Notes under the pieces: generated by a model
The model's database searches: none
Seen by the model: the letters and a program-made list of their open reading frames with translations, nothing else
Told to the model about the DNA's origin: nothing
Position numbers and translations under genes: made by a program
In this document: positions 12,775-32,365 of the stretch, piece after piece
How the letters are laid out: every line of letters starts with the position of its first letter
How positions within the stretch are numbered: the stretch's first letter is position 1
Assembly (NCBI GenBank): GCA_963765085.1
Contig: CAVXVL010000037.1
Coordinates: 29,852 to 93,851, forward strand
Reading direction: 5' to 3'
From: Terriglobia bacterium
GTDB taxonomy: Bacteria > Acidobacteriota > Terriglobia > Bryobacterales > Bryobacteraceae
Length of the DNA: 64,000 nt

Positions 12775-13506
12775 CTATTCGTCGGAGACGCCGCTCTGCT
12801 CAAAGTCCGAAGGATTGCGGAAGCGATAACCGACCCACGCTTCGGTGAGAAGGTATTGCGGGCGTGCCGGATCGTCTTCGATCTTCTTGCGCAACATGCG
12901 AACGTAGGTGCGTAGATATTCGACTTCGCCGCCGTATTCCGCGCCCCACACGGCGCGCAACAGCCTGACGTGGGTGAGCGGCGCGTTCTGATTTTTCATG
13001 AAGAACGAGAGCAGATCGATCTCTTTGGGAGACAGTCGAATTTCTTCGTCGCGTTTCCATAAGAGCCGCCGCTCGAGGTCCATCCGGAGATCGCCGGCAC
13101 GCAGGATTCTTGGATCCGCTCCGCTGGCCTGAGTCCTGCGCAGCACGGCTCCCATGCGCGCGACCAGCTCGCGAAACCGGAAAGGCTTCGTGACGTAATC
13201 GTCGGCGCCGGCGTCGAGCGCGCGGACCTTATCCTCTTCGGCGTCGCGCACGGTAACCATTACGATGCCCGTCTTCGGCGCAAAGGCGCGAATCTGGCGG
13301 CACGCCTCCACGCCGCTCATGCCGGGCATGTTGACGTCGAGCAGCACGAGATCGAAAGGGCGCTGTTGGATGAACGTAAGCGCCTCCGCACCGGTGCCTG
13401 CTTCTTCGACGGTGAAGCCGCCGGCCGCGAGCGAGGACCGGATGACCTTGCGAAGCGCGGGCTCGTCGTCCACCACCAGCACGTTAACCAGCGGCGGCGA
13501 GATCAT
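12775..13506 (-). CDS. OmpR-family response regulator, KdpE-like
   Basis: Receiver domain (VVDDEP...DLVLLDVNMPGMSG...KPF) plus a winged helix with KdpE-like LSPKEIDLLSFF...VWG...YLRTYVRMLRKKIEDDPARPQYLLTEAWVGYRF. Confidence 0.9.
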   Translation of the reverse strand: MISPPLVNVLVVDDEPALRKVIRSSLAAGGFTVEEAGTGAEALTFIQQRPFDLVLLDVNMPGMSGVEACRQIRAFAPKTGIVMVTVRDAEEDKVRALDAGADDYVTKPFRFRELVARMGAVLRRTQASGADPRILRAGDLRMDLERRLLWKRDEEIRLSPKEIDLLSFFMKNQNAPLTHVRLLRAVWGAEYGGEVEYLRTYVRMLRKKIEDDPARPQYLLTEAWVGYRFRNPSDFEQSGVSDE

Positions 13507-15022
13507 GATTTTCGTTTTCTGGGATCGGCAAAGTCAGGCGAAACGTAGTCCCCTCCACTGCGGCGCTTTCGTTGTCCAGATCGAGCGTACCGCCGAGCGC
13601 TACGGCGATTTTGCGAGCAACATATAACCCAAGCCCGGAGCCATGCGTATGGCGCGCGTCCATCCCCCGGTAGAAGCGATCGAAGATTTTGGTTCGCTCG
13701 CTCGACGGTACCGGATTTCCGCGGCTGATCACGCGCAGCGTAATCGACCGGCCGGCGCGTTGAACGTGCAGCGTGACGACCGAACCGGGCACGGAGTATT
13801 TGCAGGCGTTATCGAGAAGCTGGCTAAGCGCGAGACGAAGCAGTTCCGGATCGGCAAGCGCTTCGCTCGAATCGCAATCTTTGACGACGGAAATCTGATG
13901 GCCGGCGGACTGTCTCTGATACTGTTCCACGGTGTCGGCGATGACCGAACACACGTCGATGAGTTCGATCCACGGTTTGACGGCCTCGCGCTCCAGGCGC
14001 GCGGTGCGCAGAAGACGAGTGGTCAGACGTCCCAATCGAGCGGCCTCCAATTCCACGGTTTCCGCCATTTCGCGATGATGCGGACCGAGGCTATCCGCCT
14101 CGCGCAGGGAACCCGCCGCGGCGAGAATCGTCGACAGCGGGGTCTTGAATTCGTGCGCGAGCGCGTCGAGGACGGCGGTTCGATACGATTCAGTGTGAGC
14201 GGCGGCGGCGGCGCGGCTGGCCTTCGCGAAGGAATGAGTTCTTTCCAACTGCGCGGCGGCCAAGGCAGCCAACGGGCCCGCGGTGAGTTCCGGAGTTTCG
14301 AGTCCCTCAAATCCGATCGCGCCGATGGTGCGTCCTCCCACGCGGATGCACCGGCCCGAAATGCTGAGTTCCGGATCTTCCATGTCCCTCGATCGGATGA
14401 AGACTTGTCCGGTCTTTTCCTCGAGCAGAACGCCCGCGCGTCCCGCGATATGCACCTCGGAACTGAGCGCATCGTACAAACACACAGCCCTCAGACTAAA
14501 TACTTCTAGAAACGGCTCCAGAAAATCGTGCCTGCCGTCCACATCCGGCTCGAGGGCGAGCAGTTGCTGCGCCAGATTGTAGAGCTGCTGGAGCTGCTCT
14601 TTCTGAAGCCGCGTCGATTCCGTTCTGGTTCGTACTTTCGTCACTAGCCGCGTGATCACCAGCCCGGTGGCGAGAAACGAGATCAGCGCGACGATGTCGA
14701 GCGGATTCTGGACCTGAAACGAAAACCGCGGGTACGTGAAGTAAAACTCGAGGGATCCGACCGCGAGAACCGAAACAACAACCGAGGAAGCGAAGTCACC
14801 CGCCAGACACAGCAGCACGAGATCCAATAAGAAGCCAAAACTCGCCGTCGCAAGATTGAGCTCCAGGCGGTACATGACCAGCGTTAAGATGGCAACGCTC
14901 AACGCTCCGATTGCCGACCACTTCACGGCCCGCCAGAAGCCGCTTCGCCGTATCCGTGGAAGTGTGAACGTCCTCGACGTGAATTTCAGCGCTTGCCGCA
15001 GCGGCCGTGACGTTTCAAACAT
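13484..15022 (-). CDS. DUF4118-GAF-HisKA-HATPase sensor histidine kinase (KdpD C-terminal-type, lacking the KdpD N-terminal/Usp domains)
   Basis: Four TM helices of DUF4118 type. H-box LAHEFKTPLSTI, N-box LLDNACKYS, G-boxes DRFYRG and GSGLGLYVA. Overlaps the downstream RR gene by 23 nt. Confidence 0.9.
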   Translation of the reverse strand: MFETSRPLRQALKFTSRTFTLPRIRRSGFWRAVKWSAIGALSVAILTLVMYRLELNLATASFGFLLDLVLLCLAGDFASSVVVSVLAVGSLEFYFTYPRFSFQVQNPLDIVALISFLATGLVITRLVTKVRTRTESTRLQKEQLQQLYNLAQQLLALEPDVDGRHDFLEPFLEVFSLRAVCLYDALSSEVHIAGRAGVLLEEKTGQVFIRSRDMEDPELSISGRCIRVGGRTIGAIGFEGLETPELTAGPLAALAAAQLERTHSFAKASRAAAAAHTESYRTAVLDALAHEFKTPLSTILAAAGSLREADSLGPHHREMAETVELEAARLGRLTTRLLRTARLEREAVKPWIELIDVCSVIADTVEQYQRQSAGHQISVVKDCDSSEALADPELLRLALSQLLDNACKYSVPGSVVTLHVQRAGRSITLRVISRGNPVPSSERTKIFDRFYRGMDARHTHGSGLGLYVARKIAVALGGTLDLDNESAAVEGTTFRLTLPIPENENHDLAAAG

Positions 15023-15334
15023 GAGTGTCGGAGATGACCGCTAGAGCGGAAACCCCCAGCCTCCTGCGAGCGTCCCCGGAACTGTGCTTTCGACGCCCGA
15101 TTTCCCGCGGGCGGCTCGGGATCGTGGCGAGACTGATAGATGGCGGAAGATCGCGACGAGTATGTTTCCTGCTTGCGGCAAGGCGGGGCGTTTCGCGGCG
15201 TCGGACACTTTCACCGTTCCTTTCGCAACGTCCTACAAGTCTTACCGAGAATCTGAGTAAAGAGTTGAAAATCGCACGACCCGCGCAGCATGGGCGGAAC
15301 TTCATCGTGCTGCATACGAGTGTGGGCCACGAAT

Positions 15335-15351
15335 CGTAAAAAAGGCATAAA
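15335..15351 (-). promoter_or_regulatory. KdpE-operator-like direct repeat (TTTATG-CCTTT-TTTACG), facing the HK/RR operon
   Basis: Minus-strand reading tttatgccttttttacg, 313 nt upstream of the HK start at 15022. Confidence 0.5.
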
Positions 15352-15675
15352 AGCCGGGGGAGGGTTCCGCCGACGGCGAGCGCCTTTTCTTCATGTGGTT
15401 ATGATAGCCCTCCTTCGCTCGCGTGCTATAAAATAACACGAATTGCGCAGGCCGGGGCGAGTGCAAGTCCAAACGCAGGAAGGCCGCGCCATTTTTATAG
15501 ACTTTATACGCCAAATGCCGCGTGACAGGTCCGCGGAGCGCCTTCCGCAGGGCCGCTGCAAATGCACTCGCTTTAGCAGCACAAAACGAACACCCGCTAT
15601 GCGGGATATCGGCCCGAAAAGGGGAAAACGTTTATAAGCCCGATCAAAATTTCCTTGGACGGATTTCGCTCTCTC

Positions 15676-15692
15676 TTTATGACTTTTTTACG
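15676..15692 (+). promoter_or_regulatory. KdpE-operator-like direct repeat (TTTATG-ACTTT-TTTACG), facing the porin gene
   Basis: Plus-strand tttatgacttttttacg, 170 nt upstream of the proposed GTG start at 15862. An isolated TTTATA half-site lies at 15631-15636. Confidence 0.5.
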
Positions 15693-15861
15693 GCCTAAGA
15701 CCCACACTGACCATATACCCATGAGTCAGTGTTTTGCTCGCTTAGCAACATCTACTGACACCTGCTGGCCAACGTCAAAGCCAAACCCACGTAGGATGCG
15801 GCTGAGTCATCCACGACGAATAGTTTCACGCCGGCGCCTGAAGAAGAATAGGAAAGAAATA

Positions 15862-17520
15862 GTGCTGCTCCTCAAGAGGCGCAAGAGTTCGCAGGCGCTC
15901 GTCTTCGTCGCACTGGTGGGAACTTGCTATGTGCGCAGTGCTTCCGCGCAGGAGGCGCGTACCGTTCCCGATGCGGACCGATCAGCCGCCATGGATAATT
16001 CCGATTCCAACTTCGCGTCCGCGGCGGATACCATAGAAGTGGCGAATGCTGCAGATTCCAAAGCCGATGCGGACCCCCAATCGGTCGTCACCCCCGCGCT
16101 CCCCATTCCTGCTGCCGCGGCAGTACCCGCGGCGAATGCGGTTCCGGCCCAAGTACAGCGCGGATTTTGGAGCCGTTTCATCAAGGCATACGCGGATGAC
16201 TGGCATCCTCCGGCCGCAAGCGAAGAGTCGAAGTATCGCGGATATCCTCCCGTCGAGAGCAGCCCCCCGTATCCGTTCAGCGTGTGGCCGATCGGCGGCA
16301 CGGTGTGGATCGGCTATAACAACGCGACCGCGTATCCTCTGACCACGGCACTCCAAAACGGCCCGCACGGCGACTGGTGGAAGAAGGCCAACATTCAAAT
16401 TTACGGATGGGCCAACGCGGGAATGAATTTCAGCAGCAGCACCGAGCAGGTGGGCGGCAAGTACGCGAACTCACCCGCGGCCTACGATCAGATCCCCAAT
16501 TCCATTCAACTCGATCAGCTCGTTACGTATATCGAGCGCACTCCCGATACCGTCCAGACGGATCATTTCGATTGGGGCTTCCGCTTTACGAGTCTGTATG
16601 GCGGGAACTATCGTTTCACGACATCGAAGGGTATCTTTAGCCAGCAGCTTTTGACCATCCAGCCGGATGGGACCCTCGGCAAGCAGTACGGCTGGGATCC
16701 GGTCATGGCATACATCGATCTGTATTTTCCGCATGTCGCCTCAGGCATGATTCTGCGCGTGGGGCGTTACGTTTCTCTGCCAGACATCGAAGCGCAGTTA
16801 GCCCCCAATAACTACACCTACACGCACTCGCTCACCTACACGTATGACTGCTATACACAGACAGGCGTGAACGCGACTATCAAGTTGAGCGATCACTGGA
16901 CCTGGCAGGGCGGCATCTCTCCTGGGTGCGATGCGGCTCCGTGGAAAGCGGATGCTCGCGTCACGGGAAACACCTGTTTGCAGTTTATGTGGCGACAGGG
17001 CCAGGACGATATTTACGGCTGCGCCAACTCGATCAACAACAGCAAGTACGCCTACAACAATCTTGCAGCCTATTACTTGACCTGGTATCACAAGATCAAC
17101 GCCCAGTGGCACGTTGATTTCGAGTCCTGGTATCAGTACATGAAGGATACGCCCAATATATTCAATCCAATTGGGCAGACGCTCGTCGAGACCAATTCGA
17201 ACGGCGCGTGGTGCAACCAAGTGTCTCAGGTGACCTGCTACGCTCCCGAATGGGCCTTCTTGAATTACACGAACAGGCAGTTGGGGCCGCACGATTCGAT
17301 CAGTTTGCGCGACGAATATTTCGACGACATCAAGGGTCAGCGGACCGGCTATAAGGGCCATTACGTGGAAGGTGGGGTATCCTGGAATCACTGGATTGGC
17401 ACCACAATCGTTCTGCGCCCGGAAGTGCGGTGGGAGCACAACTTCGAAAATCCGGCCTACGACGGCGGAAATCGTCACAGTCAATTCATGTTCGCTGGTG
17501 ACGTGATCTGGTTCTATTGA
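15862..17520 (+). CDS. outer-membrane beta-barrel porin-like protein
   Basis: In-frame GTG at 15862 preceded by AGGAAAG gives the signal peptide VLLLKRRKSSQALVFVALVGTCYVRSASAQE. Alternating amphipathic strands and a C-terminal ...GDVIWFY aromatic terminus. The ORF-track start at 15655 would add ~70 non-signal residues and would cover the operator-like site. Confidence 0.65.
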   Translation: MLLLKRRKSSQALVFVALVGTCYVRSASAQEARTVPDADRSAAMDNSDSNFASAADTIEVANAADSKADADPQSVVTPALPIPAAAAVPAANAVPAQVQRGFWSRFIKAYADDWHPPAASEESKYRGYPPVESSPPYPFSVWPIGGTVWIGYNNATAYPLTTALQNGPHGDWWKKANIQIYGWANAGMNFSSSTEQVGGKYANSPAAYDQIPNSIQLDQLVTYIERTPDTVQTDHFDWGFRFTSLYGGNYRFTTSKGIFSQQLLTIQPDGTLGKQYGWDPVMAYIDLYFPHVASGMILRVGRYVSLPDIEAQLAPNNYTYTHSLTYTYDCYTQTGVNATIKLSDHWTWQGGISPGCDAAPWKADARVTGNTCLQFMWRQGQDDIYGCANSINNSKYAYNNLAAYYLTWYHKINAQWHVDFESWYQYMKDTPNIFNPIGQTLVETNSNGAWCNQVSQVTCYAPEWAFLNYTNRQLGPHDSISLRDEYFDDIKGQRTGYKGHYVEGGVSWNHWIGTTIVLRPEVRWEHNFENPAYDGGNRHSQFMFAGDVIWFY

Positions 17521-20823: not shown

Positions 20824-20835
20824 GAACCGCATCAG

Positions 20836-23800: not shown

Positions 23801-23978
23801 GCCACTGTCGCATGGGATTGGATCGGATTCGCAGCGGCCTTTCGCCATCGTGATCGTCGGCGGACTGATCTGCGCGCTGTTCATCAGCATCTTCGTGCTC
23901 CCCACGCTGTATGTGTGGATTGCCGGAGAAGACGACATTCTGCCGGAACGGGAAGCGGAGTTCGACGAACACGGCTGA
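20836..23978 (+). pseudogene. CzcA/CusA-family heavy-metal RND efflux pump; about 7 frameshifts as assembled
   Basis: MIRKLVDFALENRFLVFAAAILLF... from ATG 20836. Conserved RND sequence can be followed across ORFs 20849.., 21129.., 21292.., 21674.., 22539.., 21674-frame again and a final frame ending ...GIGSDSQRPFAIVIVGGLICALFISIFVLPTLYVW...DEHG, with TGA at 23976-23978. Frame changes are near 20915, 21195, 21225, 21760, 22490, 22945 and 23806. Confidence 0.85.
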
Positions 23979-24071
23979 GGCCCATGAACAGGCTCTTCCG
24001 AGGGCCTTGCGGCAGGACAGCGGACCGGGCCGCGGGATCTTCACCCGGCCGGATCAGAGGACGGAGGAAAC

Positions 24072-24758
24072 GTGAAGACCGCCAAAGTACCCGAATCCAC
24101 AATTCGCGACGGCATTCGCGCCCGCATCGAAGAGATCGGCATCATACCGGCCATCCGCCTGTCGTCGGCCGAGGACGCCCTGTTCGCTGCCGAAGCGATC
24201 ACCAACGCGGGCATTCCGATCGTCGAAGTGACGATGACGGTTCCGGGCGCTATGAACGTGATCCACGAGCTGGTTCGAGCGCACCCGGATATGATCGTGG
24301 GCGCGGGCACGGTGCTCGACATTATGGCGGCGCAGCGCTGCTTGGATGCGGGTGCGAGTTTTATCACCAGCACCGGGTTCGACCGCGAAGTAGTGGATTT
24401 CACGCGGAAGAAGGGCGTGGTTGTGATCCCCGGCGTCCTGACGCCGACGGAAGTCATCGAGGCGTGGAAGGCCGGTTCCGATTTCGTAAAGGTATTCCCG
24501 TGCGCTCAGGTCGGAGGACCGGGGTACATCAAAGCTCTCAAAGGTCCCTTCCCTGAATTACGCCTGATCGCCGCCGGGGGCGTCACCCAAAACAGCGCCC
24601 CCGATTTTATTCACGCAGGCGCCGTCGCGCTGGGCATCGGTCAAAATCTGATTCAGCCGCAGGCCATTCAGAACCGGGAACGGGACTGGATTCGCGAACT
24701 CGCGCGCCGCTTCCTCCGCATGGTGCAGGAAGCGAGAGCGGTCGTCGCAGAAAAGTAA
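24072..24758 (+). CDS. eda: KDPG / 4-hydroxy-2-oxoglutarate aldolase
   Basis: GTG start. Family-typical IIPAIRL, IPIVEVTMTVPGA, VGAGTVLD, PGVLTPTEV, GSDFVKVFP, LIAAGGV. Confidence 0.85.
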   Translation: MKTAKVPESTIRDGIRARIEEIGIIPAIRLSSAEDALFAAEAITNAGIPIVEVTMTVPGAMNVIHELVRAHPDMIVGAGTVLDIMAAQRCLDAGASFITSTGFDREVVDFTRKKGVVVIPGVLTPTEVIEAWKAGSDFVKVFPCAQVGGPGYIKALKGPFPELRLIAAGGVTQNSAPDFIHAGAVALGIGQNLIQPQAIQNRERDWIRELARRFLRMVQEARAVVAEK

Positions 24759-24823
24759 TTCCCACGATCGGTGGGCGCCAGCCCGCGTCACGGTTTCGCT
24801 TGCGCCGGCGGTTCTCCCACGCG

Positions 24824-25963
24824 CTATTTTTTCGCGGGCCCGGCCACCCGAGGCAAGGAGAAAAGGACGCACAGGCGATCCCTTTCCGGCGGTTTGGGAT
24901 CGAAGTCGAGCGTTCCGCCGTGCGCGAGCGCAATTTCGCGCGCTTGATACAGCCCCGCCCGTGCCTCTCCCCACGCGCTGCGCGCCCGCGTTCCACCGTA
25001 AAGAGGCTCGAAAACGCGATCGCGCTCCAGCGGCGAAAGTGAGCCGGCGTGGCTTGAAATTTCCACCACGGCAAAGGCTTCGCGCGCTGCGATTTCGACC
25101 GTAACGGAGGATTCAGTCGCCGCCTGTTTGCTCACGAAATCGAGCACTTGACCCAGCGCGACCAGGATCAAGTCCGCATCCGCGAGCACTTCGCAAACCT
25201 CCCCTCGATTCGCGAAAGTGATTTCGCGTTCGGGAGACTTTTGCGTGTACTGCTGCACAGCCTGCGCGGTCAGCATCGTGAGGTTGGTCGTATCCACGCG
25301 GGGTTGAATTTCGCCCTGGTCCAACCGGGCGATCCTATCCACCCACGAAATCAGGTTCCCTAGCCGCGAGGCTTCCTCCTCCACCATACGCGCCATTTCC
25401 AATTGCACCGGTGACAGAGGCCCTGCCTCGCGAAGTCCGCCGGCAGCCGCGAGAATGGCCGTCAATCTGTTCTTGAACTCGTCGCCTAATTGGCGGCGCA
25501 GGCGCGTGCGCTCGTAAAGAGCGGCGACGAGAGCAATCAACGGCTCGACGGTTTGCTCGGGATCCTTCAGCCCTTTAAAGGCAATTACCGCGGTAATCCG
25601 GCCGTTCGCCCGGATGCATCGGATGGTGATGGCGGAGGCGGGATCGTCGTTATCCTTGCCGCTCAGACAGGCATTTCGTGTGAGGGACTCCAGTTCAGGC
25701 GTGGCCGATCCGATGCGATACACCGTTTCCGTGCGCGCGTCGAACAAGCAGATCGCGGTGATCCCGAAAACGCCCTTGAACGGCGTCAGAAGTTCGGTTC
25801 CGTCGGTGATATTCGGCTCCAAAACGAGCAGGTGCTGAGCGAGTTGGAACAGTTGGTGCAGCCGTACCTTTGACAGCTCCGACACTTTCGCGCCTTTCGT
25901 CTTGCTGGGAGATGTGGGGTTCGCGCGATCGCTGGATGCGCCTCCGCCGACTTGGGAGGTCAC
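24824..25963 (-). CDS. soluble degenerate histidine-kinase paralogue (pseudo-kinase): no TM domain, phospho-acceptor His replaced by Asp
   Basis: Aligns with HK 13484..15022 and HK 30019..31638 from the post-membrane linker (LHQLFQLAQHLLVLEP) to the C-terminus. The H-box reads LGDEFKNRLTAIL (paralogues: LAHEFKTPLSTIL). The N-box reads VLDFVSKQA (paralogues: LLDNACKYS). The G2 box reads EARAGLYQA (paralogues: GSGLGLYVA). Confidence 0.8.
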   Translation of the reverse strand: MTSQVGGGASSDRANPTSPSKTKGAKVSELSKVRLHQLFQLAQHLLVLEPNITDGTELLTPFKGVFGITAICLFDARTETVYRIGSATPELESLTRNACLSGKDNDDPASAITIRCIRANGRITAVIAFKGLKDPEQTVEPLIALVAALYERTRLRRQLGDEFKNRLTAILAAAGGLREAGPLSPVQLEMARMVEEEASRLGNLISWVDRIARLDQGEIQPRVDTTNLTMLTAQAVQQYTQKSPEREITFANRGEVCEVLADADLILVALGQVLDFVSKQAATESSVTVEIAAREAFAVVEISSHAGSLSPLERDRVFEPLYGGTRARSAWGEARAGLYQAREIALAHGGTLDFDPKPPERDRLCVLFSLPRVAGPAKK

Positions 25964-26018
25964 AGCAATGGCTGGCGACAGGAGACGGGGCTGTCTTTAC
26001 AGACGTTAACTGGGAATC

Positions 26019-26035
26019 CATAAAAAAGTCATAAA
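26019..26035 (-). promoter_or_regulatory. KdpE-operator-like direct repeat (TTTATG-ACTTT-TTTATG), facing the pseudo-kinase gene
   Basis: Minus-strand reading tttatgacttttttatg, 56 nt upstream of the start at 25963. Confidence 0.5.
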
Positions 26036-26224
26036 AACGCGTTCCCGTGGCAATGTTCAAAGAATCGTGCCGACACCGAGTGGACCGCCGACGAAGCAGA
26101 TCGATACCGTCAAACGCGTGCTCCTTCGCGTGTTCGAGCGCGCGACCGCCGAAAGACGGCCTCTCGCGCGGGACACGGTTGCTTCATGAGAAACACGATT
26201 ACCCCATGAAAAACTCACGGCTTT

Positions 26225-26241
26225 TCTATGAGTTCTTCATG
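26225..26241 (+). promoter_or_regulatory. degenerate KdpE-operator-like direct repeat (TCTATG-AGTTC-TTCATG)
   Basis: Plus-strand tctatgagttcttcatg, about 420 nt upstream of the porin start at 26660. Confidence 0.35.
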
Positions 26242-26387
26242 CCTTTCGCACTATGCTCAGACCGTGCGAGTGAGTCAGAAGAAAATGTAAAACTTCTTAT
26301 CTTGATGACGGCACGGGACGTCGTGGATGGGGGATGCGGTCTGTTATGAGACCCATTAAAATTTCCTTTCATTCTTCTTTCACGCTT

Positions 26388-26404
26388 TTTATGACTTTTT
26401 CATG
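26388..26404 (+). promoter_or_regulatory. KdpE-operator-like direct repeat (TTTATG-ACTTT-TTCATG), facing porin 2
   Basis: Plus-strand tttatgactttttcatg, 256 nt upstream of ATG 26660. It is preceded by AAAATTTCCTT at about the same distance as at 15646-15656 upstream of porin 1. Confidence 0.5.
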
Positions 26405-26659
26405 AGCCCGGTTGCATACTGGGTCCACAACGCAGCTCAAGAAAAAAAGCCTCGATCTTCAGGGAGGCTTCGAAGGCTTGGGCGGCCCAGGGTAATTTAA
26501 GCGACTCCCGTCCGAAATTTACTGACACCATTTGCCGCCACACCCCGGTCCGGTACGGCAGCGCCCCTCGAGACACGCTTTCGGGGGCAGTGTCAGAGAA
26601 CCATAGCCAAAGTTCTATCGCTCGCTCTCTGTTAGGCAGAGGGCAAGGAAGGATATTTC

Positions 26660-28333
26660 ATGCACCACAAAAAGCATAGGAAAGGCCGAGGTGTCCTCGT
26701 TGCGAGCTTCTGCACGGCGGGGCTCCTCGCTTTCGCTGCGCAGAACGTCGTTGCGCAACAAGTCGCCGCGCAGCCGCCAGCGGTCGAACAAACGGTTTCC
26801 GACCAGAGTTCGGCGGACGCCAAACTGGACGCACTCAAGAAGCGCGCCGCGGAACGAGGAGCCGCCGCGGAGAAAGACACAAAGGATCCGGTATTAGTGG
26901 CGGATGCCTCACCGGCGCCAGCCCCCGATGCCGATGCGCAAGCCGCCCCGCCCGCGGCTCCGCCGGCGGCCGCGCCCGCGGCTCCCGCCGTGGATAACGA
27001 CACGCCGTTCGCGTTCGCCGACTTTACGTGGATGCTTTCCAATCCGCGTAATCACGACGAAGTTCTCGATGGCAAGTATTATTCCGGTGAGTTCCGCATC
27101 GATACCAACTACATGTACGATCTGAATCACCCGATCGATCACACGCTCGGTGGCACCACCGAAGGTGAGCGCACCGGTGAATTTCTGATTCAGGCCGTCA
27201 ACGTCGGCGGCGACTTCCATGCCGGCAATATGCAGGGACGCATCCTAACGCAGTTCGGCGCTGTCTCCACCGCTGTCCCGCGCAACGATGCCAGCTATAG
27301 CTTGGGCCAGTGGCAGTTAAATGATGCCTACCGGTATATGACGGAAATGTATGCCGGCTATCACATCAACTACAAACACGGTTTAAATATTCAAGTCGGC
27401 GACTTTCTGTCGTTTATTGGTCTGTTCAGCTATTACAGCTTTGATAACTGGACCTATCAGCCGTCTTATGTGTCGTCGAACACGCCGTGGTTCTTCACCG
27501 GAATGCGCGCGCAGTTCTTCCCCACGAATAAGCTGAAGATCGAGCCGTGGCTCATCAACGGCTGGCAGACCTATGCCAAATACAACGGCCGTGAAGGCGT
27601 CGGCGGTCAGATACTTTACCGGCCCACCGGAAACTGGGACTTTGTATGGAACAGCTATACCCTCGGCCGCGATACTTTGGGCAATGATCAGCGCTCGCGC
27701 TACCACGCCGACTGGAGCCAGGAGTGGAAGTTTTACGAAAAGGCCGACGGAAAAGGTTTCCACCGCATGGCGACGACCATGACCGAAGATTTCGGTTGTG
27801 AAACCGGCGGTGGTGTCGCCTGCCGCGGCAACTGGAGCAAAGGCATCCCCGCGCAGAACTTCATCGGCATCATGGGGTATATGAAGATGTGGCTCGATAC
27901 CAAGGAACGCTTCGCCTTCAACTTTGGCGGCGGCGTGATGAATAACCCGGGCCGTTATCTCGTGCTGCTTCCCCCGATCAACGGGGCGACGGCCACCACC
28001 GGAACGCCATACTTCCCGGAAGCCCCGGGTCTGCCCTTCAAGGGCTACGATTTCCAGGTCAACTTCAGTTACATGCCGAGCCAGTGGGTTACCTGGATGT
28101 TCGAGTTCACGCAACGCGGTTCGACCGTCCCGTACTTTACCGGTTCCGGCGGTGTGACGCCGCAGGCGGTTCCCGGTACGTACGTAAACACCGGCAACCC
28201 TGGTTCGTATACCTGTAACGACGGAGTCGCGTCCGGCAGCGCCACCGGTTGCGGAGGCGACGGCGGCCTGTGGAGTCCGGATCTGCGCAAGCAGGAACGC
28301 CGGTTCACGATCGCCCTTCTGGTGAAACTGTAA
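26660..28333 (+). CDS. outer-membrane beta-barrel porin-like protein with Ala/Pro-rich N-terminal linker
   Basis: Signal peptide ...LLAFAAQNVVAQQ, low-complexity PAPAPDADAQAAPPAAPPAAAPAAPA, then ~430 aa of alternating beta-strand pattern rich in Y/W/G/N. RBS AAGGAAGGA lies upstream. Confidence 0.65.
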   Translation: MHHKKHRKGRGVLVASFCTAGLLAFAAQNVVAQQVAAQPPAVEQTVSDQSSADAKLDALKKRAAERGAAAEKDTKDPVLVADASPAPAPDADAQAAPPAAPPAAAPAAPAVDNDTPFAFADFTWMLSNPRNHDEVLDGKYYSGEFRIDTNYMYDLNHPIDHTLGGTTEGERTGEFLIQAVNVGGDFHAGNMQGRILTQFGAVSTAVPRNDASYSLGQWQLNDAYRYMTEMYAGYHINYKHGLNIQVGDFLSFIGLFSYYSFDNWTYQPSYVSSNTPWFFTGMRAQFFPTNKLKIEPWLINGWQTYAKYNGREGVGGQILYRPTGNWDFVWNSYTLGRDTLGNDQRSRYHADWSQEWKFYEKADGKGFHRMATTMTEDFGCETGGGVACRGNWSKGIPAQNFIGIMGYMKMWLDTKERFAFNFGGGVMNNPGRYLVLLPPINGATATTGTPYFPEAPGLPFKGYDFQVNFSYMPSQWVTWMFEFTQRGSTVPYFTGSGGVTPQAVPGTYVNTGNPGSYTCNDGVASGSATGCGGDGGLWSPDLRKQERRFTIALLVKL

Positions 28334-28347
28334 GTGTGAATGCAACC

Positions 28348-28379
28348 GTGCCGGAGCACTCGCAAGGGTGCTCCGGCAC
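28348..28379 (+). terminator. rho-independent-type hairpin after porin 2
   Basis: Perfect 12-bp stem gtgccggagcac / gtgctccggcac with loop tcgcaagg, 15 nt after the stop. The downstream T-tract is weak (acaaaacgttt). Confidence 0.55.
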
Positions 28380-28420
28380 ACAAAACGTTTCGAAGTGAAT
28401 CCATGTAAGGAGGCTCGTTT

Positions 28421-29137
28421 ATGTGCCACGTCTCGAAAGCATTTACGGCGACGTTACTTTCCTTCTCCGCAGTCGCCTTGATCGCCGCCGCCGATCCGTC
28501 CTGGCGCGCGAAGTCCATGGATCAGTGGACGGCGCAGGACGCCAAGCAGGTGCTCACGAATTCCCCGTGGGTGAAAACGACCACGGTGAAAGCATACATC
28601 CCCAAGAACGAGGATCAACTCCGGCAAGCCGGGCGCATGGGCGGAGGCCAAGGCATCGGACTCCAGGGTTTGGATCCGAAGGGTTTTCTTTTGGGCGCGA
28701 GCACAAAGCGAAATCGTCCCGAAGCGGGTCCTGTCAATGCGCTGCAGGTTCGTTGGGAGAGCTCGGAGGCGGTTCGGGCCGCGGAGTTGAAGCTCCCGAA
28801 CGAAAGCGCACCCGACGCCTGGAAGGGCGAGTATTATGCCATCGCGGTCTACGGTGTGCCGATCCCGCCGGAGGATTTGAGCAACGAGTCGAATAACTGG
28901 AATTTGAAGAAGCTCGCGACACTGAAACGGGACGGTAAGAAAGAAGTGGCGCCGATCAAGGTCGACGTCTCGGTGCAGACGGAAAAGCTCAGCATCGTCG
29001 TTTACTTTTTTCCGCGGAGCGCGGCCATTACAACGGACGATGATCACGTGGAGTTCGACGCCCGCATCGGACGGCTGATGTTGGATCAGAAATTCGACGT
29101 CAAGGAAATGCTGCTTGGCGACAAACTTCAGCTGTGA
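28421..29137 (+). CDS. secreted protein of unknown function, 'W-x2-D/E-A-x2-V-x-NSPW' family, paralogue 1
   Basis: RBS AAGGAGG; signal peptide. Conserved blocks shared with 29245..29967 and 48238..48990: WTAQDAKQVLTNSPW, RWES, YYAIAVYG, VVYFFPRS, RIGRL. Confidence 0.6.
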   Translation: MCHVSKAFTATLLSFSAVALIAAADPSWRAKSMDQWTAQDAKQVLTNSPWVKTTTVKAYIPKNEDQLRQAGRMGGGQGIGLQGLDPKGFLLGASTKRNRPEAGPVNALQVRWESSEAVRAAELKLPNESAPDAWKGEYYAIAVYGVPIPPEDLSNESNNWNLKKLATLKRDGKKEVAPIKVDVSVQTEKLSIVVYFFPRSAAITTDDDHVEFDARIGRLMLDQKFDVKEMLLGDKLQL

Positions 29138-29244
29138 GTGATTTTTGCCGTGGCGTTTGGACGCCGCTGCGGTAAAGTCGTAATTACACACATGGCGAGG
29201 CGTCTTCGGACCTTCGCCATGGACTGTTTAAAGAGGTATACGCT

Positions 29245-29967
29245 ATGTCTCACGTGAAATTGCCGTTCGTGTTGTCGCTTAGCGCCGTCCTTCTGCTCGC
29301 TGCCGATCCCGTTTGGAAGACGAAACCCGTTCCGGCGTGGACGGAACAGGACGCCGTGCAGGTTATCACGAATTCTCCGTGGTCGAAACTGACGACCGCG
29401 GGAATCGCGCGCCTCCAATCCGAAGACGAGCGCCGCGAGGGCGGAAATATGGGACAAGCCACCGGCGTCGGGTATGACGGAATCAATAACGGAAAAAAGC
29501 CCATGCCCAATGCTTCGAGCGTCTTCGGCGGGCCGAACGCCGACCCGAAGCGCACCGGCCAGGATACGTTTTACAAGCTGCGATTAGTGTGGGAGAGCGC
29601 GCTCCCGGTTCGCCTTGCCGAATTGAAGGCGCGCGACGTTGAACCGCCCACGTCGACCACCGAATGCTACATGCTGGCCGTCTACGGTGTTCCCGGAAAA
29701 TACTTTGTGGGCGATCCGCAAAAATTAGGGAAACCCCTGATCGAGGACGCGGTCCTCAAACGAGAGGGCCAAAAAGACGTAAAGCCCTTTAACGTGGAAG
29801 TTTTTCAGCGCGACAGCGGTCCCGTAGTCGTCTACATGTTCCCGTTGTCGGCCGAAATCTCAAAAAAAGACGCGTCTGTCACGTTCGAGGCAAAACTGGG
29901 ACGGCTCATCATCTCTCAGGTATTTAATTTGGCGGAGATGGAGTTTCAGGGGAAGCTCGAAATCTAG
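29245..29967 (+). CDS. secreted protein of unknown function, NSPW family, paralogue 2
   Basis: Tandem to paralogue 1. Blocks WTEQDAVQVITNSPW, VWESALPVRLAE, YMLAVYGVP, VVYMFPLS, KLGRL. Confidence 0.6.
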   Translation: MSHVKLPFVLSLSAVLLLAADPVWKTKPVPAWTEQDAVQVITNSPWSKLTTAGIARLQSEDERREGGNMGQATGVGYDGINNGKKPMPNASSVFGGPNADPKRTGQDTFYKLRLVWESALPVRLAELKARDVEPPTSTTECYMLAVYGVPGKYFVGDPQKLGKPLIEDAVLKREGQKDVKPFNVEVFQRDSGPVVVYMFPLSAEISKKDASVTFEAKLGRLIISQVFNLAEMEFQGKLEI

Positions 29968-30018
29968 AGAAAGGCAAGCGGCCGGATCTGGCGCCAACCC
30001 ATCAGAACCGAAATCCGC

Positions 30019-31638
30019 ATGCCTCCACAAAACGATCTGGAAGATCCAACCGACTCGCTCATTCCTGCGAGCCTGCGATCGCTTCTGGCAATCGGTTCGA
30101 ATCTTCTCGATTTCCCCGCCTCCGGCAGGCCCCGAGCTAACATAGAAGCAGGCCTAAAAATGGAGTTGGCAAAAGGGGGCGCCCCGTGGGATCGCGTCAG
30201 GCGCACATTGTATGGCATCGTGGCGGTGGTGCTTGCCACGGCTCTCTGTTTCCGGCTGCATTTAGGGGCGTCCGGAACCATCCCCGTATATCTGCTCATT
30301 GTTGTACTCAGTTCCCTGGCCGGCGATTTATTATCCGCCGCGATCATCTCCCTGCTCTCCGTGCTGTCGTTGGATTATTTCTTCACTAGCCCGCTTTTTT
30401 CCCTGCGCGTGAGTAATCCGACCGAAATCCTGGCGTTGCTCTCTTTTGCGATGACGGCTTTGGTGATTACGCGTCTGGTGACGCGCGTGCGCGCGGAAGC
30501 GGAATCGGCCAGCCTTCAGAAGGACCGGCTGGACCGGTTGTATCAGCTCTCCCAGCAGCTTCTGGCATTGGAACCGGGCGATGCCGCAAGCCCCACCTTT
30601 CTCGCTCCATTCCGCCGCCTTTTCAACGTAAACGCAATTAGTATTTTCGATGCGGGGACGGGAGACCAGCACCTTGTGGGAGAATCGCGTTTTGGACTGA
30701 CGGAGAAAACGCGTCAGGCCTATCTACAGGCCCGCGATTTTGAAGATCGAACCGCGGGCATCGCCGTTCGGTGCGTCCGCGTGGGAGATCACTTGATCGA
30801 AGCGATCGGATTCGAAGGGCTTCGTCATCCGGATGAAACCGCCGGCCCGCTTACGGCCGTCACGGCGACGCTGCTCGCGCGCATTCGGGCGTTTCGTAAG
30901 GAGAGTTCCGCATCGGCCGCCGCACAAACGGAAATGTATCGCTCCGCCGTACTGGATGCCCTGGCCCACGAATTTAAGACGCCCTTGGCTACCATTCTGG
31001 CGGCCATAGGGGGCCTGCGCGAATCGGGTCCGTTGGCGCAAGAGCAAGTGGATATGGCCGATACCGTGGAGAACGAAGCGGCGCGCCTGGGAAGTCTGAC
31101 TTCGCGGCTGCTCAGAACAGCGCGGCTCGACAGGGAAGATATTAAGCCACGCATGGAATGGATCGATCTGGCGGCTCTCGCGGCAAAAGTCGCGGTATCC
31201 TACGCCGCCCGGTCGTCGGACCGCGAAATAAAAGTGGCGTCCCACGAGCCGGTGCTGGTGCCCGCGGATCCGGAGTTGCTGCAGTTGACGGTGGGACAAC
31301 TGATCGAAAACGCCTGCAAGTATTCGCAACCCGGTTCGATCGTTCGCGTCGGTCTGGAGGTTATGGGTGATTTCGTTTCCTTGAAGGTGACCAACACCGG
31401 GAGTTCGATATCCCCGCACGAACGGCGGCGCATTTTCGATCGCTTCTATCGCGGTGCGGACGCCCGGCGCTCGACGTCGGGCTCGGGTTTGGGATTGTAC
31501 GTGGCACGCAAAATCGCGATCGCTCACGGCGGCGCTCTGGATCTGGAGACCGGAACACAAGTTGAGGATAACGTGACATTTTCGTTGAAGTTGCCCTACG
31601 CCGCGCAAGGAATGGAATATGCCGCCGCAACAGAATAG
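30019..31638 (+). CDS. DUF4118-GAF-HisKA-HATPase sensor histidine kinase (KdpD C-terminal-type)
   Basis: Paralogue of 13484..15022. H-box LAHEFKTPLATI, N-box LIENACKYS, G-boxes DRFYRG and GSGLGLYVA. Overlaps the RR gene by 20 nt. Confidence 0.9.
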   Translation: MPPQNDLEDPTDSLIPASLRSLLAIGSNLLDFPASGRPRANIEAGLKMELAKGGAPWDRVRRTLYGIVAVVLATALCFRLHLGASGTIPVYLLIVVLSSLAGDLLSAAIISLLSVLSLDYFFTSPLFSLRVSNPTEILALLSFAMTALVITRLVTRVRAEAESASLQKDRLDRLYQLSQQLLALEPGDAASPTFLAPFRRLFNVNAISIFDAGTGDQHLVGESRFGLTEKTRQAYLQARDFEDRTAGIAVRCVRVGDHLIEAIGFEGLRHPDETAGPLTAVTATLLARIRAFRKESSASAAAQTEMYRSAVLDALAHEFKTPLATILAAIGGLRESGPLAQEQVDMADTVENEAARLGSLTSRLLRTARLDREDIKPRMEWIDLAALAAKVAVSYAARSSDREIKVASHEPVLVPADPELLQLTVGQLIENACKYSQPGSIVRVGLEVMGDFVSLKVTNTGSSISPHERRRIFDRFYRGADARRSTSGSGLGLYVARKIAIAHGGALDLETGTQVEDNVTFSLKLPYAAQGMEYAAATE

Positions 31639-32365
31639 CGTGTTGATTGTGGATGACGAGTCGTCGCTGCGAACGGCCCTGCGCAGCTCGCTCACGGCGA
31701 GCGGATTTGCCGTGGGCGAGGCGCGCAATGGAGAGGAAGCTCTGGGGACGGTTCAGCATACGCCGTTCGATCTGGTCCTCCTCGATATCAATATGCCGGG
31801 GATCAGCGGTCTGGATGCGTGCCGCCGATTGCGAGAGATGGCTCCCACGCTAGCCATCGTGATGGTCACCGTCCGCGAGCTGGAAGATGACAAGGTCCGT
31901 GCGTTGGAAGCGGGCGCCGACGACTACATCACGAAGCCTTTTCGCTACCGGGAACTGACTGCTCGCTTGCGCGCGGTTCTGCGCAGAACCCGCACTCAAC
32001 CGGCGGCGGAACCCTCCCCTATCTTGGAAGCTGGCGAACTGAAGCTCGACGTCGAGAAGCGCCTGCTGTGGAAGGGAGAAGAACAGATCCGTCTCTCTCC
32101 CACCGAATTCGAGCTGCTCACCTTCCTCATGCGCAACGAGAACGCACCGCTCACGCACGCGAAGCTGTTACGCACGGTGTGGGGGCCGGAAAAAGGCGAG
32201 GAGCTCGAATACTTGAGATCCTACGTCCGGATGCTTCGCAAAAAAATCGAGGATGATCCAGGCAAGCCGCAATACATCTTGACCGAGCCCTGCGTCGGAT
32301 ATCGCTTCCGCAATCCTTCCGATCCGGACGCACCGGCGGTACCGATCGAGGGATCGGACTATTAG
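31619..32365 (+). CDS. OmpR-family response regulator, KdpE-like
   Basis: Receiver domain plus winged helix LSPTEFELLTFL...VWGPEKGEELEYLRSYVRMLRKKIEDDPGKPQYILTEPCVGYRF, close to the E. coli KdpE pattern. Confidence 0.9.
   Translation: MPPQQNSVLIVDDESSLRTALRSSLTASGFAVGEARNGEEALGTVQHTPFDLVLLDINMPGISGLDACRRLREMAPTLAIVMVTVRELEDDKVRALEAGADDYITKPFRYRELTARLRAVLRRTRTQPAAEPSPILEAGELKLDVEKRLLWKGEEQIRLSPTEFELLTFLMRNENAPLTHAKLLRTVWGPEKGEELEYLRSYVRMLRKKIEDDPGKPQYILTEPCVGYRFRNPSDPDAPAVPIEGSDY

What the first reader, a model, noticed from the sequence alone, without database searches (positions are those of the whole stretch)
24824..25963. Soluble histidine-kinase paralogue with His->Asp at the phospho-acceptor and degenerate ATP-lid motifs
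The protein aligns end-to-end with the cytoplasmic portions of the two DUF4118 kinases in the window. It differs in four ways:
- it lacks the membrane domain;
- it has a ~20 aa deletion just before the H-box;
- it reads GDEFKNRL where the paralogues read AHEFKTPL;
- it has lost the N-box Asn (DFVSKQ versus DNACKY) and the G2 box (EARAGLY versus GSGLGLY).

The ORF is otherwise intact (379 aa, no frameshift) and has its own KdpE-like box. That argues for a maintained, regulated pseudo-kinase. It could be a phosphomimetic decoy, an RR-sequestering factor or a phosphatase-like modulator of the neighbouring KdpE-like regulators.
Basis: seen in the sequence. Interest (0 to 1): 0.65.

Follow-up and report, generated by a model that had tools for sequence, protein, structure and literature searches.

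The report
Conserved His-less soluble histidine pseudokinase family
This gene encodes a cytoplasmic copy of a bacterial sensor kinase that cannot phosphorylate itself yet has been kept by selection across many soil Acidobacteria, where it most likely damps a neighbouring two-component signalling system rather than acting as a kinase.

Summary
The ORF is a soluble paralogue (37-38% identity) of the window's two DUF4118 histidine kinases. It has an exact 20-aa gap before the H-box, Asp in place of the phospho-acceptor His, and degenerate N, G1 and G2 boxes.

One correction: the true start is probably GTG 25885, giving 353 aa rather than 379.

It is not a strain-specific decay product. About 35 distinct homologues from uncultured Terriglobia form one clade, and none has the His (D, E, S, G, N or T instead). 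dN/dS is about 0.2 overall and about 0.1 in the DHp.

The clade shows three stages:
- (b) His lost, N and G2 boxes kept.
- (a, this window) 20-aa deletion plus loss of the ATP-binding motifs.
- (c) CA domain lost entirely.

All forms sit divergent from the same BBP2 porin-hypothetical(-HK-RR) operon. Each is preceded by a conserved KdpE-type direct repeat (TTTATG-N5-TTYATG).

H-box residues E(+1), K(+3) and N(+4) stay nearly invariant. N(+4) is the HisKA phosphatase residue.

Best reading: an autoregulated pseudokinase that acts through its DHp on the KdpE-like regulator, as a phosphatase or sink. The rival is heterodimerisation with the partner kinase. This is a new variant of a known kind (DivL, RocA).

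The parts
24824..25885 (-). Pseudokinase coding sequence, 353 aa from GTG 25885 to the stop at 24824-24826
   Evidence: ORF. The window's own protein is called as 353 aa (P0001). Orthologues begin at MSELSKVRL, MAELSKVRL or MLELSKVRL. An AAAGG Shine-Dalgarno-like motif lies 8-12 nt upstream.
25886..25963 (-).
   Evidence: The upstream alignment A4 shows 1- and 2-nt indels between orthologues here, so the reading frame is not kept.
25574..25801 (-). N-terminal alpha/beta sensor-like (PAS/GAF-like) domain, residues 29-104, homologous to the cytoplasmic linker domain of the DUF4118 kinases
   Evidence: AF2 model with pLDDT 86-92 in this part. 73% aa identity within subclade a and dN/dS 0.19.
25319..25561 (-). 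DHp four-helix-bundle helices alpha1 (residues 109-153) and alpha2 (159-189), the most conserved part of the protein
   Evidence: AF2 secondary structure. 85% aa identity within subclade a and dN/dS 0.10. HisKA hit.
25463..25489 (-). Degenerate H-box LGDEFKNRL. D135 (codon 25481-25483) replaces the phospho-acceptor His. E136, K138 and N139 are retained, and the Pro at H+5 is lost.
25489..25490 (-). Junction of the 20-residue deletion (between Q132 and L133), which removes the helical linker N-terminal to the H-box
   Evidence: Alignments. The deletion is shared by subclades a and c.
24848..25294 (-). CA-like (HATPase_c fold) domain with a degenerate N-box LDFVSKQ (25124-25144), G1 SSHAGSL (25037-25057), F-box FEPLYGG (24992-25012) and G2 EARAGLY (24947-24967)
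   Evidence: Pfam 28.5 bits. Motif table. AF2 gives low confidence for the lid, residues 291-303. dN/dS 0.30. Coordinates.
26019..26037 (-). KdpE-type direct-repeat box TTTTTATGACTTTTTTATG facing the pseudokinase gene, 134 nt upstream of GTG 25885
   Evidence: The same box is present in orthologous loci, at the identical 134-nt spacing in L013, L008 and L014.
26386..26404 (+). Second perfect box TTTTTATGACTTTTTCATG, facing the divergent BBP2 porin operon. A degenerate copy lies at 26223-26241 (+).
25977..25996 (-). Nearly invariant leader element (A/T)GACAGCCCCGTCTCCTGTC (GACAG...CTGTC inverted repeat) between the box and the start codon
   Evidence: Conserved in all six aligned loci. Unique in the window. 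No Rfam match.
26660..32365 (+). Divergent partner operon: BBP2 porin (26660-28333), two ~240-aa hypothetical proteins (28421-29137 and 29245-29967), DUF4118 histidine kinase (30019-31638) and OmpR/KdpE-type response regulator (31619-32365)
   Evidence: Pfam and NCBIfam. Synteny in L001, L004-L008, L013, L020 and L026. This HK is sister to the HK encoded directly downstream of the pseudokinase in subclade b.
12775..17520 (.). Paralogous locus with the same architecture: RR (12775-13506, -) and DUF4118 HK (13484-15022, -) divergent from a BBP2 porin (15655-17520, +), with boxes at 15335-15353 and 15674-15692

Best explanation
The gene encodes a selectively maintained, kinase-dead, cytoplasmic paralogue of the DUF4118 (KdpD-like) histidine kinases. 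It is a histidine pseudokinase.

Proposed mechanism:
- It is transcribed from a promoter that carries the same KdpE-type direct repeat as the divergent porin operon. Its level would therefore rise when the local KdpE-like response regulator is phosphorylated.
- It dimerises through its DHp.
- It docks the regulator on the conserved alpha1 surface.
- It either accelerates hydrolysis of the regulator's aspartyl-phosphate, using the retained H+4 Asn with the flanking acidic residues (D135/E136), or holds the regulator as a sink.
- The net result is negative feedback or insulation among several closely related kinase/regulator pairs.
- ATP binding and the CA domain are not needed for this, which would explain why they decay stepwise in the family.

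Shown here: loss of the catalytic residues, monophyly, purifying selection, conserved synteny and the conserved box.
Inferred: box occupancy by the regulator, regulator binding and phosphatase or sink activity.
For: 1. His is absent in every family member, while all 35 DUF4118 kinases in the same tree keep LAHEFKTPL, and the pseudokinases form one clade.
2. Purifying selection: dN/dS is 0.22 overall, 0.10 in the DHp and 0.30 in the CA domain, across orthologues 61-70% identical. The ORF is intact in 17 loci.
3. The solvent-exposed H-box residues remain fixed without the His: G(-1) 100%, E(+1) about 90%, K(+3) invariant, N(+4) 93%. In HisKA kinases the T/N at H+4 is the residue required exclusively for phosphatase activity. 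CrdS H371A keeps most of its phosphatase activity, with a CrdA~P half-life of 2.6 min against 0.7 min for wild type and 53.5 min alone (PMC3510030).
4. Auxiliary RR phosphatases (CheZ, CheX, RapH) work by inserting an amide side chain, often with an acidic one, into the receiver active site (PMC3035606). D135-x-x-x-N139 and E136-x-x-N139 lie on one helix face.
5. Alpha1 after the H-box (LTxILAAxGGLREAGPL) is nearly identical to that of the true kinases.
6. The CA domain is dispensable: five distinct CA-less members sit in the same genomic context, with no remnant downstream.
7. The box is conserved, with one copy facing the pseudokinase and one facing the porin, in nearly all orthologous loci. 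It is enriched 5 against 0.08 expected in the window. Its 6-5-6 architecture matches the KdpE site TTTATA-N5-TTTACA (PMC3264566).
8. In subclade b the gene is co-directional with HK->RR or directly with an RR.
Against: - There is no biochemical or expression evidence. Only DNA metagenomes hold the sequence.
- The Pro at H+5 is lost in every member, and CrdS P376A has clearly reduced phosphatase activity.
- PleC H610A loses phosphatase activity, so the His can matter for that reaction.
- A carboxylate at the His position could repel the regulator's phosphoryl group.
- Alpha2 positions that correspond to the HK853 specificity residues differ systematically from the true kinases (T->M/I/V, S/N->E; T179I and L183D). 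The partner surface may therefore not be the same regulator.
- The regulators near these loci are all 59-81% identical to each other, so no specific partner could be assigned.
Confidence: 0.45

Rival explanations
1. The pseudokinase acts on the kinase rather than the regulator. It forms DHp heterodimers or hetero-oligomers with the partner DUF4118 kinase (30019-31638 here; the co-operonic kinase in subclade b). This would poison or bias that kinase's kinase/phosphatase balance, as RocA does with CovS, RetS with GacS, and the ChrS CA-frameshift variant with HrrS.
For: - The DHp is the most conserved region.
- In subclade b the gene lies immediately upstream of a genuine DUF4118 kinase in the same orientation. 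That kinase clade is sister to the window's HK 30019-31638.
- RetS and DivL kinase cores are among the structural matches.
- There are precedents for pseudokinase-kinase interaction (PMC7028121; PMC9491836).
Against: - The 20-aa deletion in subclades a and c removes the helical linker above the H-box. A heterodimer with a full-length kinase would therefore be mismatched on its N-terminal side.
- The soluble protein lacks the membrane domain that RocA needs (the RocA requirement is recalled from background knowledge and was not checked here).
- This model does not by itself explain the strict conservation of the exposed E, K and N residues of the H-box.
- In the window and its closest relatives the gene is monocistronic and separated from the kinase.
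Confidence: 0.3
2. The protein is a DivL-like reversed sensor or scaffold. It reads a cytoplasmic signal through the conserved N-terminal PAS/GAF-like domain, or reads the phosphorylation state of a regulator. It passes that information allosterically to another protein without any catalysis.
For: - The N-terminal domain is retained in all three forms and is under purifying selection (dN/dS 0.19).
- DivL is a precedent for a His-less kinase whose output domain is reused as an input (PMC4211667).
- DivL is a detectable structural relative.
Against: - The same N-terminal domain is present in all the true DUF4118 kinases, so it is not a specific innovation.
- No candidate downstream partner other than the two-component genes is conserved next to the gene.
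- CA-less forms show that the CA domain cannot be the essential sensor surface, as it is proposed to be in DivL.
Confidence: 0.15
3. The gene is a decaying duplicate (pseudogene) of a DUF4118 kinase with no function.
For: - It has lost its membrane domain, the His, and the N, G1 and G2 boxes, and carries a 20-aa deletion.
- The neighbouring RND genes in this assembly show frameshifts.
Against: - The ORF is intact in 17 independent loci at 46-70% identity.
- dN/dS is 0.1-0.3.
- Synteny and the promoter box are conserved.
- Short-read contigs confirm the sequence without indels.
Confidence: 0.03
4. The protein is still an active kinase or phosphotransferase that uses another residue, for example phosphorylation on Asp135 or on a different His.
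For: Subclade b keeps the N-box Asn and the G2 glycines, so some nucleotide binding is conceivable there.
Against: - The window protein has no His in its DHp. The only invariant His, H322, is in the CA G3 region and is absent from the CA-less forms.
- The residue at the acceptor position varies (D, E, S, G, N, T) across the family.
- The window protein lacks the N-box Asn, G1 and G2.
Confidence: 0.02

Closest known systems
DivL of Caulobacter crescentus (histidine pseudokinase, His->Tyr)
   Same: It has the class-I HisKA + HATPase_c fold with the phospho-acceptor His naturally replaced. It is conserved, and its function is independent of autophosphorylation (PMC4211667 and PMC9491836). It is detectable as a structural and sequence relative.
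   Different: DivL has Tyr rather than Asp, is membrane-tethered with several PAS domains, and regulates the hybrid kinase CckA by binding DivK~P. It is alphaproteobacterial and is not reported to be autoregulated by an OmpR-type box. It shows no series of CA-domain loss.
RocA of group A Streptococcus (pseudokinase partner of CovS)
   Same: It is a kinase paralogue with a non-functional catalytic apparatus that modulates a genuine two-component system. Mutating its predicted His has no effect (PMC7028121).
   Different: RocA retains a His and is membrane-embedded. It co-immunoprecipitates with the kinase CovS. It is unrelated in lineage and context to the DUF4118 kinases.
Bifunctional HisKA kinases in their phosphatase mode (CrdS, EnvZ, HK853)
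   Same: Same DHp fold and same H-box neighbourhood. The H+4 Thr/Asn that is exclusively required for phosphatase activity is retained, and the His is only modestly needed in CrdS and EnvZ (PMC3510030).
   Different: Those proteins are also kinases, and they keep the His, the H+5 Pro and a functional CA domain. Here the His and Pro are gone and the CA domain is degenerate or absent.
Auxiliary response-regulator phosphatases CheZ, CheX/CheC/FliY, RapH and Spo0E
   Same: They are soluble helical proteins that insert an amide (Gln/Asn), often with an acidic residue, from one helix face into the receiver active site (PMC3035606). D135/E136...N139 offers the same chemistry.
   Different: There is no homology. 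Those families are not derived from histidine kinases, and activity of the present protein is untested.
KdpD/KdpE two-component system
   Same: The parental kinases share DUF4118 and the cytoplasmic part with KdpD (NCBIfam best hit). The regulators are KdpE/PhoB-like, and the box has the KdpE 6-5-6 direct-repeat architecture.
   Different: No KdpD N-terminal/Usp domain was found in the Pfam hits for the kinases examined, and no kdpFABC genes were among the neighbouring genes examined. The regulated genes examined here are BBP2 porins and unknown ~240-aa proteins.

Membership tests
Functional HisKA-type histidine kinase | Phospho-acceptor His in the H-box of DHp alpha1 | tested here: not met
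   Asp135 aligns to the His in pairwise, family and PDB-profile alignments. There is no His anywhere in the DHp.
Functional HisKA-type histidine kinase | ATP-binding motifs of the CA domain (N-box Asn, G1, G2) | tested here: not met
   LDFVSKQ, SSHAGSL and EARAGLY stand in place of LDNACKY, N-x-G-S-S and GSGLGLY. The HATPase_c score is 28.5 bits against about 75 for the paralogues.
Functional HisKA-type histidine kinase | DHp + CA fold | tested here: met
   The AF2 model (pLDDT 76.5) has a helical hairpin plus an alpha/beta CA domain. Foldseek matches HK853, WalK, VicK, RetS and DivL at E 1e-11 to 1e-17.
DUF4118 / KdpD-like sensor kinase | N-terminal DUF4118 membrane domain | tested here: not met
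   No Pfam hit. No remnant upstream by tblastn. All family members start at the membrane-proximal helix.
DUF4118 / KdpD-like sensor kinase | Homology of the cytoplasmic sensor-like + DHp + CA portion | tested here: met
   37-38% identity end to end, E 7e-57 and 4e-70.
Bacterial histidine pseudokinase (DivL/RocA kind) | Kinase fold with catalytic residues missing, yet conserved under purifying selection | tested here: met
   0 of about 35 members have His. dN/dS is 0.22. The clade is monophyletic.
Bacterial histidine pseudokinase (DivL/RocA kind) | Regulatory function exerted by binding a kinase or regulator, independent of phosphorylation | not testable with these tools
   This needs interaction and phosphotransfer assays. 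Only genomic association with HK/RR genes is shown.
HisKA-type response-regulator phosphatase activity | Thr/Asn at H+4 (required exclusively for phosphatase activity; PMC3510030) | tested here: met
   N139. Asn is present in 93% of the family, against Thr in 100% of the true kinases.
HisKA-type response-regulator phosphatase activity | Intact alpha1 geometry, including Pro at H+5 (P376A lowers CrdS phosphatase activity) | tested here: not met
   The Pro is replaced by R, G, A, T or S in all members. The consequence is unknown.
HisKA-type response-regulator phosphatase activity | Measured acceleration of RR~P hydrolysis | not testable with these tools
   A biochemical assay is required.
KdpE/OmpR-type regulon member | Direct repeat of two 6-bp AT-rich half-sites with an 11-bp period upstream of the gene | tested here: met
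   TTTATG-ACTTT-TTTATG lies at 26019-26037. The pattern is enriched 5 against 0.08 expected and is conserved in orthologous loci. The architecture matches the KdpE site. Binding itself was not tested.

The most novel reading that the evidence does not exclude
The family is a natural conversion of a sensor histidine kinase into a dedicated, transcriptionally autoregulated response-regulator phosphatase.
- Replacing the phospho-acceptor His with Asp or Glu next to the retained H+4 Asn would create a CheZ/CheX-like acid-amide catalytic dyad on DHp alpha1.
- Once that is in place the ATP-binding domain becomes superfluous and is discarded stepwise: motifs intact, then motifs lost, then the domain lost.
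- This would provide a living evolutionary series from kinase to a DHp-only phosphatase.
Probability: 0.3. Interest if true: 0.7.

Novelty: new variant of a known kind. Interest (0 to 1): 0.6.

Why it matters
Bacterial histidine pseudokinases are known from only a handful of studied cases, such as DivL, RocA, PsmA and a laboratory-evolved ChrS. How they arise is poorly documented.

This family offers a natural series within one positional orthologue. The His is lost first, then the ATP-binding motifs together with a 20-aa linker deletion, and finally the whole CA domain. Throughout, the DHp and the phosphatase-relevant H-box residues stay under strong constraint.

It would allow a direct test of two points:
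- whether a DHp lacking both His and a CA domain is sufficient for regulator dephosphorylation or sequestration in vivo;
- how cross-talk is controlled among the many near-identical KdpD/KdpE-like pairs of soil Acidobacteria.

It also defines a candidate cis-element and regulon (BBP2 porins plus unknown ~240-aa proteins) for an uncharacterised acidobacterial signalling system.

Tried and rejected
- Expression evidence: a search for public runs found only soil-metagenome DNA and no RNA.
- Rfam scan of 24700-26700 at E<=1: nothing.
- Sigma-70 promoter scan: nothing. One terminator-like hairpin after the stop (24761-24775) is below chance expectation.
- DUF4118 remnants upstream: none.
- Alternative H-box or alternative conserved His: none in the DHp.
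- Assigning a specific partner regulator by sequence: the regulators near these loci are all 59-81% identical to both window regulators, so this gave no discrimination.
- Using DHp alpha1 specificity positions to separate regulator-binding from kinase-binding: alpha1 is almost the same in all paralogous kinases and in the pseudokinases, so it is uninformative. Alpha2 differs systematically but cannot be interpreted without a complex structure.
- A first regex classification of H-boxes in the representative hits was too strict and was replaced by an HMM-based column read-out.
- The phosphomimetic-Asp idea was downgraded, because S, G, N and T occur at the same position in deeper family members.
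- Pseudogene or assembly-artefact reading: rejected.
- dN/dS is Nei-Gojobori with dS about 0.8-1.5, close to saturation. The values are indicative only.
Full report
**1. Observation**

The ORF 24824..25963 on the minus strand is present and uninterrupted (379 aa from a GTG).

Domain content and similarity:
- Pfam detects only a weak HATPase_c domain (28.5 bits) and a sub-threshold HisKA domain (23.8 bits against a cut-off of 26.9).
- BLASTP gives 38% and 37% identity (E 7e-57 and 4e-70) over the whole cytoplasmic part.

The three-way alignment confirms every detail:
- there is no membrane domain;
- there is a gap of exactly 20 residues directly before the H-box;
- LGDEFKNRL stands against LAHEFKTPL;
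- LDFVSKQ stands against LDNACKY;
- EARAGLY stands against GSGLGLY;
- the G1 box is also degenerate.

Further checks:
- A profile built from the family aligns the Asp to the phospho-acceptor His of a solved bacteriophytochrome kinase (VLGHDLRNPL).
- There is no other His in the DHp. The only invariant His of the family lies in the CA domain.
- tblastn finds no remnant of a DUF4118 domain upstream.
- Short-read contigs from independent soil metagenomes cover 24707-25747 without indels. The only difference (25469 G>A) is synonymous in Asn139.

One correction concerns the start codon.
- Orthologues begin at M-(S/A/L)-ELSKVRL.
- The window's own protein is called as 353 aa (P0001).
- The start is therefore most likely GTG 25885, preceded by AAAGG. 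In that numbering the Asp is D135.

**2. It is a conserved family, not a decaying copy**

- A search of about 5.8 billion proteins returned some 25 full-length homologues of 350-408 aa without DUF4118, at 47-71% identity, ahead of the true DUF4118 kinases at 33-43%.
- None of them has the His. The position holds D (most often), E, S, G, N or T.
- All 35 DUF4118 kinases collected from the same loci read LAHEFKTPL or a close variant. In a neighbour-joining tree the His-less proteins form a single clade.
- An exhaustive profile search of 1.84 billion 50%-identity representatives finds only about seven representative clusters of this family (P0003, P0075, P0030, P0061, P0046, P0131, P0190). The family is small.
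- The named genomes are uncultured Terriglobia (Acidobacteriota) MAGs.
- Nei-Gojobori estimates among the five subclade-a orthologues give dN/dS of 0.22 overall: 0.19 for the N-terminal domain, 0.10 for the DHp and 0.30 for the CA domain. Amino-acid identities are 73%, 85% and 58% respectively.
- dS is close to saturation (0.8-1.5), so these are rough values. Together with intact ORFs in 17 loci they exclude a pseudogene.

**3. A stepwise series of degeneration**

The family splits into three forms.
- **Subclade b** has lost the His and the H+5 Pro. It keeps the full-length helix before the H-box, the N-box (LDNAC[KR][YF]) and G2 (GSGLGLY).
- **Subclade a**, which contains the window protein, has in addition the 20-aa deletion and degenerate N, G1 and G2 boxes.
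- **Subclade c** comprises at least five distinct proteins (L024/P0046, L025-L026, L045, P0025, P0027).
  - It shares the deletion and ends a few residues after DHp alpha2.
  - tblastn finds no CA remnant downstream.
  - L026 lies next to the same porin (75% identity) and hypothetical protein (77%) as the window gene. These are therefore positional orthologues, not fragments.

The part that is always kept, and the most constrained, is the N-terminal domain plus the DHp.

**4. Structure**

- AlphaFold2 with the family alignment gives mean pLDDT 76.5.
- The model has an N-terminal helix, a small alpha/beta PAS/GAF-like domain (residues 29-104, pLDDT about 90), a long alpha1 (109-153) with D135 in its middle, alpha2 (159-189) and a CA-type alpha/beta domain (198-346). 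The lid (291-303) is modelled with low confidence.
- Foldseek matches full-length sensor kinases (bacteriophytochrome, WalK, VicK) and kinase cores (HK853, RetS, CusS, DivL) at E 1e-17 to 1e-11.
- The 20-aa deletion removes the helical linker between the sensor-like domain and the H-box. It equals three heptads minus one residue, so it should change the helical register. That last point is an inference.

**5. Context and cis-element**

Arrangement in the window:
- The gene lies between a convergent KDPG aldolase (24072-24758) and a 775-bp intergenic region.
- Beyond that region a divergent operon encodes a BBP2 porin, two ~240-aa proteins without family assignment, the DUF4118 kinase 30019-31638 and an OmpR/KdpE-type regulator 31619-32365.

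Arrangement elsewhere:
- The divergent pairing with the BBP2 porin and one to three ~235-aa proteins is found in every locus with enough flank (L001/L009, L004, L005/L006, L007/L016, L008, L013, L020, L026).
- In subclade b the pseudokinase is followed in the same orientation by a genuine DUF4118 kinase and a regulator (L004, L005), or directly by a regulator (L007).
- That downstream kinase clade is sister to the window's kinase 30019-31638, which is therefore the probable partner.

The box:
- The intergenic region carries TTTTTATGACTTTTTTATG (26019-26037, facing the pseudokinase, 134 nt before GTG 25885) and TTTTTATGACTTTTTCATG (26386-26404, facing the porin), plus a degenerate copy at 26223-26241.
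- The pattern matches five times in the window against 0.08 expected. The other two matches lie in the analogous intergenic region between kinase 13484-15022 and a second BBP2 porin.
- The paired arrangement recurs in nearly all orthologous loci of the three subclades, with the identical 134-nt spacing in L013, L008 and L014.
- Its half-sites (TTTATG-N5-TTYATG) have the 6-5-6 direct-repeat architecture of the E. coli KdpE site TTTATA-N5-TTTACA (PMC3264566).
Binding by the regulator is inferred.

**6. Mechanism**

What is shown:
- The protein cannot autophosphorylate on the canonical site, and in this subclade it almost certainly does not bind ATP.
- It is nevertheless maintained, with the strongest constraint on the DHp.
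- Within the H-box the exposed residues remain fixed although the His is gone: G(-1) 100%, E(+1) about 90%, K(+3) invariant, N(+4) 93%. The true kinases have A, E, K and T at these positions.

What the literature adds:
- In HisKA kinases the Thr/Asn at H+4 is the residue required exclusively for phosphatase activity.
- The His contributes only modestly in CrdS and EnvZ. The CrdA~P half-life is 0.7 min with wild type, 2.6 min with H371A, 47.6 min with N375A and 53.5 min alone (PMC3510030).
- Unrelated regulator phosphatases (CheZ, CheX, RapH) likewise insert an amide, often with an acidic residue, into the receiver active site (PMC3035606).
- D135/E136 and N139 lie one helical turn apart on the same face.

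Further support:
- Alpha1 downstream of the H-box, the main regulator-docking surface, is nearly identical to that of the true kinases.
- The local regulators are all close paralogues (59-81% identity) that presumably share the box. Cross-talk is therefore plausible, and a soluble phosphatase or sink would be useful.

I therefore favour an autoregulated, DHp-mediated action on the KdpE-like regulator, by dephosphorylation or sequestration, which gives negative feedback or insulation (confidence about 0.45).

Points against:
- the universal loss of the H+5 Pro, given that CrdS P376A has reduced phosphatase activity;
- the His-dependence of the PleC phosphatase;
- systematic changes in alpha2 (T179I, L183D);
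- the complete lack of experimental or transcript data.

Rivals:
- The main rival is heterodimerisation with the partner kinase, as for RocA-CovS, RetS-GacS or the ChrS pseudokinase with HrrS. It is supported by the operon arrangement in subclade b and by the conserved DHp (about 0.3).
- A DivL-like reversed sensor or scaffold is possible (about 0.15).
- A decaying pseudogene and a cryptic kinase are effectively excluded.

**7. Comparison with known systems and novelty**

- Bacterial histidine pseudokinases are an established kind: DivL, RocA, PsmA and the evolved ChrS variant.
- This family meets the defining features that can be tested in silico: a kinase fold, missing catalytic residues, and purifying selection.
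- It fails the definitions of a functional HisKA kinase and of a DUF4118 membrane sensor.
- It differs from the known cases in several ways: it is soluble, it carries Asp at the acceptor site with a retained phosphatase residue, it sits behind the regulator's own box, and it shows a graded loss of the CA domain among positional orthologues.
- No paper describing it turned up in the literature searches run here.
- I rate it a new variant of a known kind, with interest 0.6. It is well supported as a real, maintained pseudokinase with an unusually informative evolutionary series, but its mechanism is inferred only.

Noticed in passing
window 19658-24050 (+): The CzcB/CzcA-type RND efflux genes next to the finding are broken into pieces in different reading frames (ORFs 19658-20332, 20221-20823, 21674-24556 and 22539-22949). 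Independent short-read contigs differ from the window by 1-bp deletions at 20741, 21193, 21223 (depth 34.6, 3 contigs) and 23806, and by an AG insertion after 20821. The frameshifts are therefore probably assembly errors or strain variants rather than real pseudogenes. The orthologous locus L001 has an intact 1045-aa ACR_tran gene.
   Followed up: partly
window 25977-25996 (-): A nearly invariant 20-nt element, (A/T)GACAGCCCCGTCTCCTGTC (GACAG...CTGTC inverted repeat), lies in the 5' leader between the box and the start codon. It is conserved in subclades a and c, unique in the window and has no Rfam match. The palindrome GCGATCGC further downstream in the leader is also conserved. This could be an operator or a leader hairpin.
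   Followed up: partly
window 28421-29137 (+) and 29245-29967 (+); L004-L007, L016, L020: One to three tandem paralogous ~235-245-aa proteins with no Pfam or NCBIfam match always follow the BBP2 porin in the operon divergent from the pseudokinase. They are a conserved family of unknown function that is probably controlled by the same box.
   Followed up: partly
proteins P0058, P0081, P0118, P0119, P0161 (from the searches): Other relatives of the DUF4118 kinases have independently lost the phospho-acceptor His. P0058 (486 aa, full-length with DUF4118) reads LAQEFKTPL. P0081 has Q, P0118 has N, and P0119 and P0161 have Y as in DivL. Loss of the His seems recurrent in this kinase group.
   Followed up: no
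window 15023-15700; L001, L004, L005: The same KdpE-type box occurs between kinase 13484-15022 and a second BBP2 porin (15335-15353 and 15674-15692). The second of these lies inside the listed ORF 15655-17520, whose TTG start is therefore probably too far upstream. In related loci small EF-hand proteins accompany these BBP2 porins, which hints at a cation (Ca2+?) related regulon.
   Followed up: no
L001/L009 5995-6735, L008, L026: Sister genomes carry an extra OmpR-type regulator between the hypothetical proteins and the DUF4118 kinase (RR-HK-RR). The window lacks it: 29967 to 30019 leaves no room. It may be the pseudokinase's ancestral cognate regulator.
   Followed up: partly
true DUF4118 kinases of the window and related loci (for example window 30019-31638): The genuine kinases of this group have Asn or Ser rather than the canonical Asp at the first position of the G1 box (V-x-N-x-G-S-S-I).
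   Followed up: no
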